From a phage, in sequence record PZ452578.1: 64,000 nucleotides of DNA, one strand, 5' to 3'. The notes beneath the pieces are model-generated. The model did no database searches. It was not told the origin of the DNA and was given only the letters and a program-made list of their open reading frames with translations. Positions within the stretch are counted from its first letter, which is position 1. Each line of letters starts with the position of its first letter. The translations under genes and the position numbers were made by a program. Below, one piece after another: positions 29,789 to 62,951 of this stretch.

Positions 29789-30627
29789 TAGAATGCTCCT
29801 TGGAAAATATTATCACCACTAGTAGGTCTATTATACAAATACTCTATGCCACCAGGTTTAATATAGTTCCATGTCTGAAACGGATGTGTCTGATATGGAT
29901 GATATAGATGATTATAAGGATTAAATCCAGGAGTTCTCCAGGTAGTGTTCCAAGGAAAAGAATCGTTTTTGATCATCTTCTCAATTACATCTTTTATAAC
30001 TTTTTCACTATCAAAACTTTCTTTATTTTCCTTCGATGGAAAAAGCTTATTCTCTACATCATTCCATGTATAAACTCGCTGTGCAGTTTTTGGAATACTG
30101 TCACGCTCCCCTCGAGCCATCCAATAAACAGGAACATTTAATATTTCACTCGCGTGATCGCAGTGGTGAGCGAGATCGTCAATATAACAAATTACGTTAT
30201 ATTTCTCTTTTGCCTTTTTGAACAACTCTTCTTTTGAAGAATCATGACCACACATCAATACTTCTGAGAAGGCACCAGGAAAAAGAGCATTCAAATTAAA
30301 TTGACGATTCAGCAGAGCGTCAATAGAATCACCCAATGCTGTAAGAGCTACAAAATTATAATCTTCTTTTAATTTGTTAATTACACACAGGGCATCTTTA
30401 TATGGAGACAAGTAACGAATAAAATCTGAACGATTGTATTTTTCAATTAACTTGACGCCAAGTTCTTCATCACAATTAAAGAGTTTACCAGGAGAAATAA
30501 ATTTCTCATCTTGGATCATTTTTAAAATATGTTCTAACGGAAGATTATATTTCTGAGCAAAATAAGGAAGGCCTGATTGCCAGCTTAAACATACTCCATC
30601 AATATCAGTTAAAATAGTAGGCTTCAT
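29788..30627 (-). CDS. Putative HAD-superfamily hydrolase (T4 30.2 position)
   Basis: 279 aa; N-terminal ILTDIDGV fits HAD motif I (DxDx[TV]); later CYIDD could be the acidic motif IV. Confidence 0.65.
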   Translation of the reverse strand: MKPTILTDIDGVCLSWQSGLPYFAQKYNLPLEHILKMIQDEKFISPGKLFNCDEELGVKLIEKYNRSDFIRYLSPYKDALCVINKLKEDYNFVALTALGDSIDALLNRQFNLNALFPGAFSEVLMCGHDSSKEELFKKAKEKYNVICYIDDLAHHCDHASEILNVPVYWMARGERDSIPKTAQRVYTWNDVENKLFPSKENKESFDSEKVIKDVIEKMIKNDSFPWNTTWRTPGFNPYNHLYHPYQTHPFQTWNYIKPGGIEYLYNRPTSGDNIFQGAF

Positions 30628-31088
30628 AGAGAGTCTCTTAATAGGTTTAACACATCAATAAATTCAGCTTCGGTTAGTATTGTATCATCTTTTGTTAGAC
30701 CACTAGCCATGCTGTGCTTCAAAACTTTTCCTTTCGAGGCTTGTAATGCATCACGAAAGCCCTTGTTTTGGATCGCTGCTTCAAAATATGCATTTGTGTA
30801 TAATTCTTTCCACGCCGGGGAGTATCTTGAAAACGGAACTCCAAGCCAGAAGAGGGTCCCACGGTCCTGAGCTCTAGCATAAGACCTTCCAGCTTGTTGA
30901 GCGGCAAGCCCGGATAACCCAAATATACGACGTTGTTGTTCAACATTTTTCACCTTACATCCTTGGAGGAATCCTTCGAGACCTCCAAATTGAATGCCAT
31001 CCATAACGAAAGGCCATTGGGCGAAATTACTTAATGCACATGATGGCCACCTAAAATTGCTTCTAATCTCTAACTCAGACATTTTCAA
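30624..31088 (-). CDS. 30.3: NADAR-like (YbiA/DUF1768-like) protein, 30.3
   Basis: 154 aa; LSNFAQWPFVMDGIQF...EGFLQGCKV resembles the remembered YbiA core FSNFAAWP...DG...EHYFQAQKF; recalled from memory. Confidence 0.55.
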   Translation of the reverse strand: MKMSELEIRSNFRWPSCALSNFAQWPFVMDGIQFGGLEGFLQGCKVKNVEQQRRIFGLSGLAAQQAGRSYARAQDRGTLFWLGVPFSRYSPAWKELYTNAYFEAAIQNKGFRDALQASKGKVLKHSMASGLTKDDTILTEAEFIDVLNLLRDSL

Positions 31089-31281
31089 TACTTATAATTT
31101 CAACATCAGCCCAATGACCATAGCAAGGAAGACGAAATTCAACTGGCCAGTTAGGGTCCTTTTCTAATATAATAGACTCAACTTGTGGTTCTTCATGTTC
31201 ATCAGTATATGGATTTTTATCTGTTACTTTATATGTTACCTTAATGTACTGAATTCCAAAAATCTTATTAATTATATTCAT
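31075..31281 (-). CDS. Hypothetical small protein
   Basis: 68 aa ORF in the tightly packed 30.x cluster. Confidence 0.6.
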   Translation of the reverse strand: MNIINKIFGIQYIKVTYKVTDKNPYTDEHEEPQVESIILEKDPNWPVEFRLPCYGHWADVEIISIENV

Positions 31282-31475
31282 ATTAATTCCTTTAATCCAT
31301 AGATAGGAGATAATTCATCGCCCATATGAAGGTCTTCATTTCCATCTACCCAAGAAACAATATAAGCCTCTTTTACTTGAACATCTCCCAATTTAAATGC
31401 GGGTAAAACCTTAGAAATTAATCCAGGTATACCAACTCCCTTTAATTCAACGGTTTGACCTAAAAAGAATTTCAT
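31278..31475 (-). CDS. Hypothetical small protein
   Basis: 65 aa ORF with overlapping stop/start on both sides. Confidence 0.6.
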   Translation of the reverse strand: MKFFLGQTVELKGVGIPGLISKVLPAFKLGDVQVKEAYIVSWVDGNEDLHMGDELSPIYGLKELI

Positions 31476-31813
31476 TAGAACCTCATCTGAAACCCATGTG
31501 ATTTAACATTACCGCCATTAATATCAGAACTATTAATTTCGCGTGCAATTGAGGGATCAATGTCAATTTCGCCATTAAGTTTAATGATAGACAAAGTATC
31601 ACGCCCATTTACAGTGCGAAACTCTAAAGGACAAACCACATCAACGTAGTTTTTAATCGATTCACTGGTAGGTTGCAAATGAGCAGGAAGGTCTTTGGAC
31701 GCCTTTGAGAAAACCACTTCACAGAAATTTTTACGGGTATCAAAATAAGTAGTCATAAACATAGTATTTTCCTCAGTAAGGGGCCGAAGCCCCTCATTTA
31801 TTTTAAATATCAA
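31475..31813 (-). CDS. Hypothetical protein
   Basis: 112 aa ORF in the 30.x cluster. Confidence 0.65.
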   Translation of the reverse strand: MIFKINEGLRPLTEENTMFMTTYFDTRKNFCEVVFSKASKDLPAHLQPTSESIKNYVDVVCPLEFRTVNGRDTLSIIKLNGEIDIDPSIAREINSSDINGGNVKSHGFQMRF

Positions 31814-32180
31814 ATTCGTTAAGAACTACATCAAAGATTGCTTCAAGATGCTCAGGTTTAGCTCTGTTACTCAGAATATGACGAATCCAAGTTTTAACCA
31901 AAAGCTTGCGATTATCACCATTCCAGCAAGGATGAGTCCCTAAATCACGTTGACGGAAATCATCATCCAGAGCGATTTTGAAGTTGGAACCTTCCATTGT
32001 GATTGAAACCGTGATACCGTTTTCAAATCGCATATAAACGTAGTTAGGAGTCATATACTGTTCAATTTCGCATACTGATCCATTTTGATGTTTCCAAAGG
32101 CAAATAGTATCAATAGAACCTGCAATACCATTAGAAACATATTTACGTTCAAAGTTGATGTAGTTCATTTTATTCTCCAA
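31803..32180 (-). CDS. Hypothetical protein
   Basis: 125 aa ORF in the 30.x cluster. Confidence 0.65.
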   Translation of the reverse strand: MENKMNYINFERKYVSNGIAGSIDTICLWKHQNGSVCEIEQYMTPNYVYMRFENGITVSITMEGSNFKIALDDDFRQRDLGTHPCWNGDNRKLLVKTWIRHILSNRAKPEHLEAIFDVVLNEFDI

Positions 32181-32235
32181 GATGTTTAATTGCGGTACAG
32201 GTATATAATATCATATCCTGTACCAAAGTAAACAA

Positions 32236-32568
32236 TTATTTTACTACTTTCCAATGCTGCATGTCAAGTTTACCAACTTTTTTCATCTTCTCAATTAAGC
32301 GTTCTGCACGTTGACGAGCTGTAACATAATGCCATTCGCCTAATTCATTTTGTTCAATTTTTCCAACGATTACTGTATTCAATTCATAAATCCAACCAGT
32401 AAAGAAATTATGAACTTGAATTGTAAAGGTGAAATCTGTTCCCATACCTTCTGTTGTTTCTACTTCAATAATATCACCTTCAACTGCCATTAAGAACCAC
32501 ATAGTTTCATTATATTTACCATTGAAGCATTTAGTTTTAACTGCAGCGTTCAGATTAATCGTTTTCAT
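32236..32568 (-). CDS. Hypothetical protein
   Basis: 110 aa ORF with a GGAGAA RBS, downstream of an early promoter. Confidence 0.7.
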   Translation of the reverse strand: MKTINLNAAVKTKCFNGKYNETMWFLMAVEGDIIEVETTEGMGTDFTFTIQVHNFFTGWIYELNTVIVGKIEQNELGEWHYVTARQRAERLIEKMKKVGKLDMQHWKVVK

Positions 32569-32595
32569 TTTATTCTCCTTTGTTTGTGTAAGATA

Positions 32596-32624
32596 ATACT
32601 ATCACAAAGGAACCATACTGTAAA
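32596..32624 (-). promoter_or_regulatory. Sigma70-like early promoter (-35 TTTACA, 17 bp, -10 TAGTAT)
   Basis: Minus strand GTTTACAGTATGGTTCCTTTGTGATAGTAT upstream of the 110 aa ORF. Confidence 0.65.
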
Positions 32625-32654
32625 CAACTTTATGCAATCTTTGGAAAATAAAAA

Positions 32655-32678
32655 AGGACTCCCGAAGGAGTCCTCAAC
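32655..32678 (-). terminator. Rho-independent terminator after 30.9
   Basis: AGGACTCC-TTCG-GGAGTCCT hairpin followed by TTTTTATTTT on the minus strand. Confidence 0.8.
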
Positions 32679-32855
32679 TTATGCTTTCTGCTTACCAAAA
32701 CGAGAAGCATCATCTCGAAGAACCGCACGTGCTCGACGCATGATCTTCTCAACAGTTTGATTGATACGAGAGTTCGACCCACGCTTGTAGCCAGCGCGTT
32801 TAGAATCACCAACTTTCTTTTCAACTGCTTTCTTTGCTTTAACTTGTTTTGCCAT
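32679..32855 (-). CDS. 30.9: Small basic protein 30.9
   Basis: ORF track gives 72 aa; the internal MAKQVKAKKAVEKK start gives a 58 aa Lys/Arg-rich protein. Confidence 0.65.
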   Translation of the reverse strand: MAKQVKAKKAVEKKVGDSKRAGYKRGSNSRINQTVEKIMRRARAVLRDDASRFGKQKA

Positions 32856-33143
32856 TATAAATTCTCTTTTAAATGAAAATGCAGGACTTATTGACATTGC
32901 CTGCGCAAGCCCTCAAGGGGAACATAGGTTTTTGGATATTTAACGACCAGGATAACCATAAACCCGTCATCATACCACCAAGACTTACACAGATAACACT
33001 TTTCTGACGCATGATAGTAACATTCAAGAGGTACACCGTAAAACTGCCGGGGTCTTAAAACTATAATGATTCGCAAATCATTAATCAGACAGTTCGACGG
33101 CTCCTCGATTTAGCTCACACTAAGGCAGTGAATCTCCAATAAA

Positions 33144-36157: not shown

Positions 36158-36219
36158 TTCAATTTCCTCATTTGTTTTGGTAGAGCTATAATATCATAAC
36201 TCTACCGTAAAGTAAACTA

Positions 36220-47319: not shown

Positions 47320-47562
47320 TCAAACAGACTTTTTCACAATTTTCCAATCAGCTTTAAACTGCTCGACGTCAGAATGGTAAATCCAAAATCCTGCGCTTTC
47401 TCCATCCTCATAAAGAGGGCATCCATCACATTCATCTTCCCACCCCATATCGCGTAAAAGGTGTTCAGCTTTTTCAACAAGTTCAGAATCTTTACCGATG
47501 ATATTATAATACCATTTACCTCTAACTTCCGAGTCTTTGATGCTCTGACGTTGTAATCTCAT
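47320..47562 (-). CDS. Hypothetical protein
   Basis: 80 aa ORF. Confidence 0.65.
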   Translation of the reverse strand: MRLQRQSIKDSEVRGKWYYNIIGKDSELVEKAEHLLRDMGWEDECDGCPLYEDGESAGFWIYHSDVEQFKADWKIVKKSV

Positions 47563-47619
47563 TTTATTCTCCTCAAGTTGATAAGGCTATAGTATCATTA
47601 CCATAGCCTGTTGTAACAT

Positions 47620-47876: not shown

Positions 47877-47906
47877 ATAGTATCACACTACTACCCTTAC
47901 TGTAAA
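47877..47906 (-). promoter_or_regulatory. Sigma70-like early promoter (-35 TTTACA, 18 bp, -10 TACTAT)
   Basis: Minus strand GTTTACAGTAAGGGTAGTAGTGTGATACTAT upstream of paralog A. Confidence 0.6.
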
Positions 47907-48287
47907 CTACTTTTTGAAAGTTTTTCGCAAAAGTTCAATGATTTCATCTACATTGTTTTCATCTACAATGCAGTGAATTTTTGTTACGCCAGAAACCTTG
48001 TCTTTGACTTCAACTTCTTCAGAAGTCGGTTCTTTATACTCACGAAAACAATGAAATTCGTCTTCGCAAATTTCTAAAAGTCTATCTTTGAGGTAAAAAT
48101 GCTTTCCATTTGCGCATTCAATGTGTTTTACTGCTTTATATCCATTAGCGACGGAAACTTCTTTAACTTCAAACCATCCGCCATTATCTCGAATCGCTTT
48201 AACTATTGATGAATTAGAACGTGGGCTATAATTAATAAATGTATCAATAAGTCTTGGAACAAGCTCATACTTTTTACCGGTATACAT
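47907..48287 (-). CDS. Hypothetical protein
   Basis: 126 aa ORF between the two paralogs. Confidence 0.65.
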
Positions 48288-48607: not shown

Positions 48608-48636
48608 ATAGTACCATGGAAGAACAGGGATGTAAA
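48608..48636 (-). promoter_or_regulatory. Sigma70-like early promoter (-35 TTTACA, 17 bp, -10 TACTAT)
   Basis: Minus strand GTTTACATCCCTGTTCTTCCATGGTACTAT, just downstream of the gene 32 terminator. Confidence 0.65.
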
Positions 48637-48668
48637 CAGTTTTGTGAAAAAATTTTTGAAATAAAAAA

Positions 48669-62798: not shown

Positions 62799-62951
62799 TC
62801 AATTAGTTGACTTTATTATAATATCATCAGACACTTGATTTGTAAACTGGTCTGTGTTATTTTCTTCAAAAATTTTTTCTACGAATTCCTTGAACGACTC
62901 GCGTTCCTGAGCTGCATTATGCTCGATTACCATTTCAAGATTATGACTCAT
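62799..62951 (-). CDS. Hypothetical small protein (not in ORF track)
   Basis: 50 aa ORF found by manual translation (MSHNLEMVIEHNAAQERESFKEF...); its ATG overlaps the arn stop as ATGA. Confidence 0.5.
   Translation of the reverse strand: MSHNLEMVIEHNAAQERESFKEFVEKIFEENNTDQFTNQVSDDIIIKSTN
62818..62846 (-). promoter_or_regulatory. Sigma70-like early promoter for asiA (-35 TTTACA, 17 bp, -10 TATTAT)
   Basis: Minus strand AGTTTACAAATCAAGTGTCTGATGATATTAT, embedded in the 3' end of the upstream small ORF. Confidence 0.6.

What the first reader, a model, noticed from the sequence alone, without database searches (positions are those of the whole stretch)
31075..32568. Block of five unassigned small early ORFs (30.4-30.8 positions)
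Five overlapping ORFs of 65-125 aa have no motif I recognise. In T-even phages this kind of block is enriched for host shut-off and anti-defence functions, and it is served by its own early promoter at 32596-32624.
Basis: inference. Interest (0 to 1): 0.4.

Follow-up and report, generated by a model that had tools for sequence, protein, structure and literature searches.

The report
T4 early accessory genes 30.4–30.8
These are the long-catalogued phage T4 genes 30.4 to 30.8: five small, dispensable proteins made in the first minutes of infection, one of which is reported to bind a host enzyme and set off a bacterial immune sensor, while the other four remain of unknown function and two of them fold confidently with no relative among solved structures.

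Summary
They are orthologues of T4 gp30.4, 30.5, 30.6, 30.7 and 30.8 (88-99% identical). The true sizes are 68, 65, 95, 121 and 110 aa. All are under purifying selection. In T4 all five are early at RNA and protein level and non-essential on E. coli K-12.

The promoter at 32596-32625 is a genuine T4-type early promoter. Both sit in a conserved cassette of stem-loop, GTTTAC-N-TGnTAnnAT and a GGAGAATAAAATG ribosome site of the RegB-cleaved type.

A preprint reports that T4 gp30.5 binds host polyphosphate kinase and triggers bNACHT11. The downstream neighbour 30.3 is the anti-DarTG enzyme AdfN.

Best reading: a shuffled early cassette of small host-protein binders. The genes and their regulation are already known. 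Four functions remain open.

The parts
32654..32675 (-). Intrinsic terminator hairpin (UUCG loop followed by a T-run) after gene 30.9. It is the upstream half of the composite terminator/promoter (PeSL-type) element.
   Evidence: Terminator scan. RNA fold dG -16.4 kcal/mol, z -3.95. An equivalent hairpin is present in T4, HX01, IME08, CF1, Roth76, X20 and BM7.
32596..32625 (-). Early promoter P1: GTTTACA, 17-nt spacer, TGaTAGTAT extended -10. It drives 30.8 and the genes downstream.
Evidence: pattern found 6 times in the window against 0.10 expected. The element is conserved in position across genera.
32566..32578 (-). Ribosome-binding site and start of 30.8, GGAGAATAAAATG. The GGAG is the motif cut by RegB.
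   Evidence: The exact 13-mer occurs three times in the window, twice in this block. It is part of a 15-nt direct repeat with the 30.7 start and is conserved in 10 phages.
32236..32568 (-). Gene 30.8 (110 aa, PF06019).
32205..32233 (-). Second early promoter P2: GTTTACT, 16-nt spacer, TGaTATTAT.
   Evidence: Conserved upstream of 30.7 in T4, HX01, IME08, CF1, Roth76, S16, CC31, X20 and BM7.
32194..32224 (-). Stem-loop GGTACAGG...CCTGTACC enclosing the -10 box of P2. It forms only in read-through transcripts from P1.
   Evidence: RNA fold dG -16.1 kcal/mol, z -4.74. By eye, X20 and BM7 carry different paired sequences at the same place; this covariation was not formally tested.
32166..32178 (-). 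Ribosome-binding site and start of 30.7, GGAGAATAAAATG (RegB-type).
   Evidence: RegB cleavage at GGAG in the T4 30.7 early transcript was shown by primer extension (PMC9409239). The T4 sequence at this site is the same apart from one extra A before the ATG and a T-to-C change upstream of GGAG.
31803..32168 (-). Gene 30.7 (121 aa, PF06919).
31778..31795 (-). GC-rich UUCG hairpin between 30.7 and 30.6 with no T-run. Its role is unproven; an RNA processing or stability element, or a weak terminator, are possibilities.
   Evidence: RNA fold dG -14.1 kcal/mol, z -2.7. Present in T4 with one loop change. It is the 3' boundary of the natural ESh24 deletion.
31475..31762 (-). Gene 30.6 (95 aa).
   Evidence: PHROG 2153, E 4e-50. 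93% identical to T4. dN/dS 0.05. 'Semi-Fit' in the T4 CRISPRi-ART screen.
31278..31475 (-). Gene 30.5 (65 aa, acidic). Orthologue of the T4 protein reported to bind Ppk and trigger bNACHT11.
   Evidence: PHROG 1690. 88% identical to T4 gp30.5, with six of the eight differences in residues 26-34. Literature. pI 4.8.
31075..31281 (-). Gene 30.4 (68 aa, acidic).
   Evidence: PHROG 2042. 99% identical to the reference T4 protein and 100% to another T4 record. dN/dS 0.18. pI 4.6.
30624..31082 (-). Context only: gene 30.3 (PF08010), which is AdfN, the NADAR enzyme that counters DarTG1. Its start overlaps the end of 30.4 by 8 nt.
   Evidence: Pfam E 2.2e-70. Literature: HIDEN-SEQ preprint. Depositor annotation 'NADAR domain containing protein' in phage Shinka.

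Best explanation
The region is the 30.8-30.4 segment of the hyperplastic interval between rIII and the ligase gene of a T4-like (Tequatrovirus) phage.

Shown or strongly supported:
- It encodes five real, soluble proteins of 7-14 kDa.
- By homology with T4, host RNA polymerase transcribes them immediately after infection from two tandem strong early promoters, P1 before 30.8 and P2 before 30.7.
- 30.8 and 30.7 start at identical GGAGAATAAAATG ribosome sites. The phage RegB nuclease cuts this site in the T4 30.7 mRNA, which would confine their synthesis to the first minutes.
- 30.6, 30.5, 30.4 and the anti-DarTG gene 30.3 follow as a chain with overlapping stop and start codons, suggesting translational coupling.

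Inferred:
- The proteins are not part of the core replication or assembly machinery.
- Each is an independently exchangeable accessory module that acts by binding a host protein stoichiometrically, giving an advantage only in particular hosts or conditions.
- For gp30.5 a partner is reported: host polyphosphate kinase Ppk. Such a binding surface can in turn be detected by host immune sensors, as bNACHT11 does for gp30.5.
- For gp30.4, 30.6, 30.7 and 30.8 the partners are unknown.
For: Identity:
- Synteny and 88-99% protein identity with T4 30.4-30.8.
- Family hits.

Real genes:
- dN/dS 0.04-0.38.
- Conservation across Tequatro-, Mosig-, Dhaka-, Moon-, Karam-, Gelderland-, Winkler- and Marfavirus and Klebsiella phages.

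Early expression:
- Promoter statistics and conservation.
- T4 omics classes all five as early RNA and early protein.
- The T4 30.7 mRNA is an early transcript cut by RegB at its Shine-Dalgarno GGAG.

Accessory and dispensable:
- All of 30.1-30.9 are non-essential in T4 transposon mapping on K-12.
- 30.4, 30.5, 30.7 and 30.8 are 'Not Fit' and 30.6 only 'Semi-Fit' in CRISPRi-ART.
- Natural phages lack 30.7 plus 30.8 (ESh24) or 30.5 (UGKSEcP2).
- Deletion fusions 30.8::30.3 and 30.7::30.3 exist in databases.

Modular:
- Other genera insert unrelated ORFs between 30.8 and 30.7 and after 30.7.
- A gp30.7 homologue occurs in Vequintavirinae.
- A gp30.8 homologue sits at another locus in an Aeromonas phage.
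- The promoter/stem-loop elements match the published PeSL description.

Binder rather than enzyme:
- No catalytic family or fold match for any of the five.
- gp30.5 co-purifies with Ppk, with a reciprocal pull-down.
- The neighbour 30.3 is a counter-defence gene.
Against: - Only one of the five has an experimentally reported partner. That report is a preprint, and it used the T4 allele, which differs from the window's allele in a nine-residue patch.
- No consequence of Ppk binding for the phage has been shown.
- gp30.7 has invariant polar residues (N5, H79, D113; nearly invariant H27, D69, R72, R96), concentrated in the loop between strand 7 and helix 1. This could equally mark an active site, so an enzymatic role is not excluded.
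- Absence of fold matches is negative evidence only.
- The lack of phenotype comes from a few laboratory strains.
Confidence: 0.55

Rival explanations
1. One or more of the four uncharacterised proteins (gp30.4, 30.6, 30.7, 30.8) is a dedicated inhibitor of a specific bacterial anti-phage system.
For: - They are co-transcribed with 30.3 (AdfN), the anti-DarTG1 enzyme.
- They lie in a hyperplastic region, whose genes are proposed to encode ancillary, adaptive functions.
- They are early and conditionally dispensable.
- The CRISPRi-ART authors list 30.6 among unknowns that might reflect inhibition of host-encoded defence.
Against: - No similarity to any characterised protein, counter-defence or otherwise, by sequence or fold.
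- No experiment links any of them to a defence system.
- The one defence link known in the block, gp30.5 with bNACHT11, runs the other way: gp30.5 is a trigger, not an inhibitor.
Confidence: 0.25
2. The proteins are host shut-off factors that arrest host transcription, translation or replication and are toxic when expressed alone.
For: - Immediate-early timing and rapid RegB-mediated switch-off resemble other T4 early genes.
- Small early T4 proteins such as Alc, Ndd and AsiA act this way (general T4 knowledge; AsiA toxicity is noted in PMC2988021).
Against: - gp30.5 expressed alone did not reduce colony formation.
- Loss of any of the five gives no fitness defect in T4 on K-12, although shut-off factors can also be dispensable.
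- No similarity to known shut-off proteins.
Confidence: 0.1
3. At least gp30.7 is a small enzyme (for example a hydrolase or a modifying enzyme) with a new fold. Its conserved His/Asp/Arg residues would form the active site.
For: - N5, H79 and D113 are invariant and H27, D69, R72 and R96 nearly invariant across 59 sequences down to 27% identity.
- It has the strongest purifying selection in the block (dN/dS 0.04).
- It has the widest cross-family distribution, reaching Vequintavirinae.
Against: - No hit to any enzyme family or fold.
Confidence: 0.08
4. The ORFs are housekeeping phage proteins or, at the other extreme, non-functional leftovers.
For: Some GenBank records label gp30.7 'baseplate hub subunit' or 'head vertex protein'.
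Against: - Against housekeeping: non-essential in two genome-wide T4 screens, natural deletions, early rather than late expression. The structural-protein labels have no support from Pfam, PHROGs or fold search.
- Against leftovers: purifying selection and conservation across genera, and protein detected early in infection in T4.
Confidence: 0.02

Closest known systems
Phage T4 genes 30.4, 30.5, 30.6, 30.7, 30.8 (NP_049818 to NP_049822)
   Same: Same order, strand, sizes (68/65/95/121/110 aa), overlaps, intergenic hairpins, two early promoters and GGAG ribosome sites. Proteins are 99, 88, 93, 98 and 99% identical.
   Different: The window is not T4 itself; the best DNA match is 97.8%, to phages REP2/REP3. 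gp30.5 carries the alternative allele PAFKLGDVQV where T4 has PPFKWSGIQI at residues 26-34. gp30.6 also carries several substitutions.
T4 gp30.5 as Ppk-binding trigger of bNACHT11, with the other small trigger proteins T2 gp6 (binds CoaA) and T2 gp57 (binds GlpK) (bioRxiv 10.1101/2024.12.17.629029)
   Same: The window's gp30.5 is the orthologue. It is small, acidic, early and non-toxic, and the reported T4 behaviour is the model used here for how the block works: binding a host enzyme.
   Different: Binding was shown only for the T4 allele. The effect on Ppk activity and the benefit to the phage are unknown. Nothing comparable is known for gp30.4, 30.6, 30.7 or 30.8, which are unrelated to gp30.5 in sequence.
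PeSL elements (promoter-early stem-loop cassettes) of T4-like phages (Arbiol et al. 2010, PMC2839356; Comeau et al. 2014, PMC4122927)
   Same: Composite stem-loop plus early promoter with the T4/PST consensus TTTACW-N17-TAYWAT, located in hyperplastic regions next to variable ORFs and at indel boundaries. P1 has a terminator stem-loop just upstream. P2 is embedded in a stem-loop. A natural deletion (ESh24) runs from the P1 leader to the hairpin after 30.7.
   Different: P1's -10 (TAGTAT) departs from TAYWAT at one position, and P2's spacer is 16 nt, not 17. Whether these two particular elements were listed by those authors was not checked. Recombination at them is inferred from comparative data only.
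T4 gp30.3 / AdfN (NADAR, anti-DarTG1)
   Same: Same transcription unit, with its start overlapping the end of 30.4. Non-essential on K-12 but conditionally essential against a defence system. It is a precedent for what 'dispensable' genes here can do.
   Different: AdfN belongs to a recognisable enzyme superfamily (NADAR). The five proteins of the finding match no characterised family or fold.
DUF2158 (PF09926, YodC-like small proteins)
   Same: One depositor labels gp30.5 'DUF2158'. A DUF2158 sequence aligns colinearly with the gp30.5 family over 47 columns.
   Different: Pfam gives no DUF2158 hit for gp30.5 or four divergent homologues even at E <= 1. hhalign probability is only 4.5%. DUF2158 itself has no known function.

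Membership tests
T4 gp30.7 family (Pfam PF06919) and gp30.8 family (Pfam PF06019) | Full-length match to the family HMM above the curated gathering score. | tested here: met
   PF06919: 178.3 bits against a cut-off of 27, residues 1-120. PF06019: 195.6 bits against a cut-off of 25, residues 1-110.
T4 gp30.4 / 30.5 / 30.6 orthologue groups (PHROGs 2042, 1690, 2153) | Full-length HMM match, and the same position between 30.7 and 30.3 as in T4. | tested here: met
   E 4e-35, 1.8e-32 and 4.4e-50. Synteny with NC_000866.
T4 early (sigma-70, extended -10) promoters | GTTTAC(A/T) -35 element, 16-17-nt spacer and TGn plus a TAnnAT -10 box, on the coding strand upstream of an early gene. | tested here: met
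   Both sites fit. 6 sites in the window against 0.10 expected, all on the minus strand. Conserved in position in 9-10 phages. The element description is from PMC2988021.
T4 early promoters | Transcription initiates there immediately after infection, independently of phage protein synthesis. | not testable with these tools
   Only indirect evidence: T4 30.4-30.8 are early at RNA and protein level, and the 30.7 mRNA is described as an early transcript.
RegB endoribonuclease targets | GGAG within the Shine-Dalgarno region of an early mRNA. | tested here: met
   GGAGAATAAAATG at 32566-32578 and 32166-32178.
RegB endoribonuclease targets | Cleavage in the middle of GGAG by RegB, stimulated by ribosomal protein S1. 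| not testable with these tools
   Shown for the T4 30.7 transcript by primer extension (PMC9409239). It is inferred here from the near-identical sequence. For 30.8 it is only a sequence prediction.
PeSL (promoter-early stem-loop) cassettes | Early promoter fitting TTTACW-N17-TAYWAT, coupled to a stem-loop. | tested here: inconclusive
   Stem-loops are present and stable. P2 is TTTACT-16-TATTAT, so the spacer is one short. P1 is TTTACA-17-TAGTAT, so the -10 box has one mismatch. Consensus.
PeSL cassettes | Located in a hyperplastic region and associated with indels or gene swaps between related phages. | tested here: met
   Gene content between 30.9 and gene 30 varies between genera. The ESh24 deletion is bounded by the P1 leader and the hairpin after 30.7. 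UGKSEcP2 lacks 30.5 and carries a Mosigvirus-type 30.4.
bNACHT11 activators / Ppk-binding gp30.5 | Orthology to T4 gp30.5 (NP_049819). | tested here: met
   88% identity over the full length, at the same locus.
bNACHT11 activators / Ppk-binding gp30.5 | Physical binding to Ppk and to the SNaCT domain of bNACHT11. | not testable with these tools
   Reported for the T4 allele only. The window's allele differs at residues 26, 29-32 and 34.
DUF2158 (PF09926) | Match to the Pfam HMM above the gathering score. | tested here: not met
   No hit at E <= 1 for gp30.5 or four divergent homologues. hhalign against a verified DUF2158 sequence: probability 4.5%, E 0.009.
PH-like beta-sandwich fold (considered for gp30.8) | Significant structural superposition on PH-like or PTB-like domains. 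| tested here: not met
Known anti-phage defence components (PADLOC) | HMM match to any PADLOC model. | tested here: not met
   No family at E <= 1 for any of the seven proteins scanned.

The most novel reading that the evidence does not exclude
gp30.7 and gp30.8, each carried on its own mobile promoter cassette, represent two previously undescribed protein folds. Like gp30.5 with Ppk, they would neutralise or re-route specific host enzymes or immune sensors. The whole rIII-30 interval would then be a swappable 'toolbox' of host-enzyme binders whose binding surfaces are also what NLR-like bacterial sensors have evolved to detect. The two-allele patch in gp30.5 (residues 26-34) and the natural loss of 30.5 would be footprints of that arms race.
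Probability: 0.2. Interest if true: 0.6.

Novelty: already known. Interest (0 to 1): 0.25.

Why it matters
T4 is the best-studied lytic phage, yet about half of its genes still have no function, and this block is a typical example.

Practical value of this check:
- The block is shown to be known, expressed and dispensable, so it is not a discovery in itself.
- It has two, not one, early promoter cassettes.
- One member now has a reported host target (Ppk) and a reported immune sensor (bNACHT11).
- gp30.7 and gp30.8 give high-confidence models with no relative among solved structures, which makes them reasonable targets for structure determination and interaction screens.

If the remaining four also bind host enzymes or defence proteins, the region would be a compact source of new phage-host interaction modules. 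It would also be a test case for how bacterial sensors recognise unrelated small phage proteins.

Tried and rejected
1. I concatenated the five protein families into one 'polyprotein' alignment (A2) to retrieve homologues of all five in a single capped search. There were 3964 candidates and none scored, so one search was lost. A first attempt that mixed fragments with concatenations also aligned badly.

2. The single-sequence word-index search for gp30.8 gave only 6 clusters. The exhaustive HMMER search had to supply the alignment used for structure prediction.

3. Weak repeated matches of gp30.8 to two large bacterial proteins (P0098, 4362 aa; P0099, 746 aa; E about 1e-6) looked like a lead to a repeat domain. 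The family profile does not support it (hhalign probability 0.3%), and Pfam shows unrelated domains. Rejected as repeat-inflated noise.

4. DUF2158 assignment for gp30.5: no Pfam support, and hhalign was inconclusive.

5. Profile searches of all five families against PDB sequences gave nothing below E 0.01. The Leo1 hits for gp30.5 (E 0.017-0.026) cover 24 residues and were not pursued.

BFVD returned only gp30.7's own family.

7. Rfam found nothing above gathering score. The two sub-threshold hits are just the hairpins.

8. Accession-number and 'gene 30.x' literature searches mostly returned numeric noise. The primary transcription paper (Truncaite et al. 2006, Virology 344:378) is not held, so its content is cited only through papers that cite it.

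Full report
WHAT IS THERE

The window is a Tequatrovirus (T4-like) genome. The 1.7 kb around the finding matches 722 phage records, best 97.8% (Escherichia phages REP2/REP3), almost all from Escherichia, Shigella, Yersinia and Salmonella T-even phages. In the T4 reference record the same stretch is annotated, in the same order and on the same strand: 30 (ligase), 30.1, 30.2, 30.3, 30.3', 30.4, 30.5, 30.6, 30.7, 30.8, 30.9, rIII, 31.

Two ORFs are over-extended by upstream TTG codons. Homologues from many genera, and the T4 annotation, begin at the ATGs at 31762 (gp30.6, 95 aa) and 32168 (gp30.7, 121 aa), each with a Shine-Dalgarno sequence about 8 nt upstream. Against the T4 proteins the window's gp30.4, 30.5, 30.6, 30.7 and 30.8 are 99, 88, 93, 98 and 99% identical.

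ARE THEY GENES?

Yes.
- Each matches a PHROG family over its full length (E 1e-32 to 1e-66).
- tblastn finds 720 (30.4), 912 (30.5), 869 (30.6), 995 (30.7) and 1042 (30.8) phage records.
- Alignments with homologues from Mosig-, Dhaka-, Moon-, Karam-, Gelderland-, Winkler- and Marfavirus and Klebsiella phages show protein-like conservation.
- Among seven Tequatroviruses all five frames are intact. Mean pairwise dN/dS is 0.11 (30.8), 0.04 (30.7, six sequences), 0.05 (30.6), 0.38 (30.5) and 0.18 (30.4).
- In T4, time-resolved transcriptome and proteome data place all five in the class 'early RNA, early protein' (PMC9697503 supplements 4 and 6).

REGULATION

A canonical terminator hairpin closing gene 30.9 lies just upstream of it (32675-32654; dG -16.4 kcal/mol, z -3.95).

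A second site of the same type (GTTTACT-16-TGaTATTAT, 32233-32205) lies in the 67-nt gap between 30.8 and 30.7. The specific T4-type pattern GTTTAC-N13-16-TGNTANNAT occurs six times in the 64-kb window, always on the minus strand, against 0.10 expected by chance. Two of the six are these sites.

I aligned the regions upstream of 30.8 and of 30.7 from ten or eleven phages of different genera. In nearly all of them (not Eryne for 30.8, nor the non-T4-like KaOmega for 30.7) the same cassette appears before both genes: a stem-loop, GTTTAC(A/T), a 16-17-nt spacer, TGnTAnnnT, a short leader and then GGAGAATAAAATG. That 13-mer is exact at both starts in the window.

GGAG in a Shine-Dalgarno region is the RegB cleavage motif. 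RegB cutting of the T4 30.7 early transcript at this site has been shown by primer extension (PMC9409239, citing Truncaite et al. 2006, which is not held).

The P2 promoter is embedded in a stable stem-loop (GGTACAGG...CCTGTACC; dG -16.1, z -4.7). Its sequence differs in other genera while the pairing appears to be kept, judged by eye. A further UUCG hairpin follows 30.7.

This architecture corresponds to the published 'PeSL' (promoter-early stem-loop) elements of T4-like hyperplastic regions, whose T4/PST consensus is TTTACW-N17-TAYWAT (PMC4122927). The fit is close but not exact for either site. The known T4 middle promoters P30.2 and P30 lie downstream of the block.

Downstream of 30.7 the genes 30.6, 30.5, 30.4 and 30.3 have overlapping stop and start codons, which suggests translational coupling.

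FUNCTION: WHAT THE SEARCHES SAY

Pfam gives only the self-named families PF06919 (Gp30.7) and PF06019 (GP30.8). NCBIfam and PADLOC give nothing, and all PHROGs are 'unknown function'. Single-sequence and profile searches against all PDB sequences give nothing significant for any of the five.

gp30.7 has 77 clusters in the 5.8-billion-protein set. Nearly all are single-domain proteins of about 120 aa, from phage records or unnamed metagenomic contigs. gp30.8 has only 21 representatives among 1.84 billion.

An AlphaFold2 model of gp30.7 built on 59 sequences is confident (pLDDT 91.9, pTM 0.84). It is a seven-stranded antiparallel sheet followed by two C-terminal helices.
- BFVD returns only its own family.
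- The most conserved stretch is the loop between strand 7 and helix 1 (R72...R87, with invariant H79).

It yields well-defined folds and no functional assignment.

All five proteins are predicted soluble. gp30.4 and gp30.5 are acidic, with pI 4.6 and 4.8.

FUNCTION: WHAT THE LITERATURE SAYS

- A preprint (10.1101/2024.12.17.629029) reports three things about T4 gp30.5. It is one of three redundant T4 triggers of the NLR-related defence protein bNACHT11. It does not reduce colony formation when expressed alone. It co-purifies with host polyphosphate kinase Ppk, confirmed by reciprocal pull-down.
- The downstream neighbour 30.3 is AdfN, a NADAR enzyme that reverses DarT ADP-ribosylation. It is dispensable on K-12 but required in the presence of DarTG1.
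- Genome-wide T4 transposon mapping classes 30.1 to 30.9 as non-essential on K-12.
- CRISPRi-ART scores 30.4, 30.5, 30.7 and 30.8 'Not Fit' and 30.6 'Semi-Fit' (score 0.72, p 0.067).

COMPARATIVE GENOMICS

The rIII-to-30 interval is hyperplastic.
- 30.9, 30.8, 30.7 and 30.5 are widely kept, while 30.6, 30.4 and 30.3 are patchy.
- Other genera carry unrelated ORFs of 150-170 aa between 30.8 and 30.7 and after 30.7.
- A gp30.7 homologue (about 30% identity, with its own sigma-70-like promoter) is found in Vequintavirinae, which are not T4-like phages.
- A gp30.8 homologue lies between the primase and dda genes in an Aeromonas phage.
- A gp30.6-like ORF sits next to ndd in a Slopekvirus.
- Within Tequatrovirus, phage ESh24 lacks 30.8 and 30.7. 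Its deletion runs from the P1 leader to the hairpin after 30.7, leaving P1 in front of 30.6.
- UGKSEcP2 lacks 30.5 and carries a Mosigvirus-type 30.4.
- In-frame fusions 30.8::30.3 and 30.7::30.3 exist in the databases.
- gp30.5 has the highest dN/dS of the five. It occurs as two alleles that differ in one patch (residues 26-34): PAFKLGDVQV in the window, Sf21 and CrRp10, and PPFKWSGIQI in T4 and most others.

INTERPRETATION

Shown or strongly supported: identity with T4 30.4-30.8; coding status; two early promoter cassettes; RegB-type ribosome sites; early expression and dispensability in T4; modular gain and loss.

Inferred: the proteins act as small stoichiometric binders of host proteins that pay off only in particular hosts. 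gp30.5 with Ppk is the one worked example, and the adjacent AdfN is the precedent for conditional value.

Why a phage would bind Ppk is my speculation and is not supported by any tool result. Possibilities include sparing ATP or blocking a polyphosphate stress response.

A dedicated anti-defence role for one or more of the four unknowns is a live alternative (about 0.25). Host shut-off toxicity is less likely (about 0.1), and an enzymatic role for gp30.7 is possible (about 0.08). Housekeeping or junk readings are contradicted.

NOVELTY AND SCORE

The ORFs, their early promoters, the terminator, the stem-loop and the RegB sites have been described for T4 and relatives, and gp30.5 now has a reported partner. 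The finding is a correct re-identification of known T4 ORFans rather than a discovery, so I rate it 'already known' with interest 0.25.

- The second promoter.
- The cassette comparison across genera.
- Selection statistics.
- Natural deletion variants.
- The gp30.5 allele patch.
- Two confident models without structural relatives.

Noticed in passing
window 31375-31401 (gp30.5 codons 26-34); L001, L016-L020: gp30.5 exists as two alleles in Tequatroviruses that differ almost only in a nine-residue patch: PAFKLGDVQV in the window, Sf21 and CrRp10, and PPFKWSGIQI in T4 and most others. It has the highest dN/dS of the block (0.38). Given that gp30.5 is sensed by bNACHT11 and binds Ppk, this could be an arms-race patch. 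That idea is untested.
   Followed up: partly
L014 (Shigella phage ESh24, 1063-1200); L015 (phage UGKSEcP2, 376-883): Natural Tequatrovirus variants exist. ESh24 has a clean deletion of 30.8 plus 30.7 that fuses the P1 leader to the hairpin after 30.7. UGKSEcP2 lacks 30.5 and carries a Mosigvirus-type 30.4 allele. The ESh24 record is flagged UNVERIFIED.
   Followed up: yes
P0005 (phage RPN226, 86 aa); P0071 (154 aa, metagenomic): In-frame fusion proteins 30.8(N-terminal part)::30.3(C-terminal part) and 30.7(residues 1-78)::30.3 show larger deletions that remove 30.7-30.4 or 30.6-30.4. The 30.7::30.3 junction falls at a shared ...GT motif (RDLGT / DRGTLFW).
   Followed up: partly
L010 3501-3869 (Klebsiella phage KaOmega, Vequintavirinae); P0050-P0070: gp30.7 homologues (about 30% identity, 123 aa) occur in Vequintavirinae phages of Klebsiella, Cronobacter and Salmonella, which are not T4-like. 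This implies horizontal transfer of the single gene. The KaOmega copy has its own sigma-70-like promoter with an extended -10.
   Followed up: partly
L007 3498-3830 (Aeromonas phage UP87); L013 1162-1392 (Klebsiella phage BL02): The gp30.8 homologue of an Aeromonas Biquartavirus sits between the primase and dda genes, not near the ligase gene. A gp30.6-like ORF in a Slopekvirus sits next to ndd. The modules move between different variable regions.
   Followed up: no
GenBank records under hits H15, H17, H30, H32, H47 and L021: Several deposited genomes carry labels unsupported by the Pfam/PHROG scans or, for gp30.7, by fold search: one ORF of the block (gp30.9 in the Shinka record, L021) as '1,4-alpha-glucan branching enzyme', and gp30.7 as 'head vertex protein' (Shinka). 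In other records ORFs of the block are labelled 'baseplate hub (subunit)' or 'prohead core protein'. In the record checked, the glycogen-branching label sits on gp30.9.
   Followed up: partly
window 32679-32897 (-): The gene 30.9 ORF is 72 aa from the first ATG, but T4 annotates 58 aa starting at MAKQVKAKK (ATG at 32855). The product is very basic (pI 11.3, 21 K+R in the 72-aa form) and widely conserved. Its function is unknown.
   Followed up: no
window 36188-36217, 47877-47907, 48608-48637, 62818-62847 (all minus strand); 47560-47572: Four more exact matches to the T4-type early promoter pattern, and one more exact GGAGAATAAAATG site, lie elsewhere in the window. They probably mark other early cassettes.
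   Followed up: no
L016 1901-2349 (phage CrRp10); L019 1894-3186 (phage PYps11T): In CrRp10 no 30.3 (AdfN) gene is annotated in the expected space. In PYps11T, 30.3 and 30.2 are annotated as one 1293-nt ORF. These may be loss or fusion of the anti-DarTG gene, or annotation artefacts.
   Followed up: no
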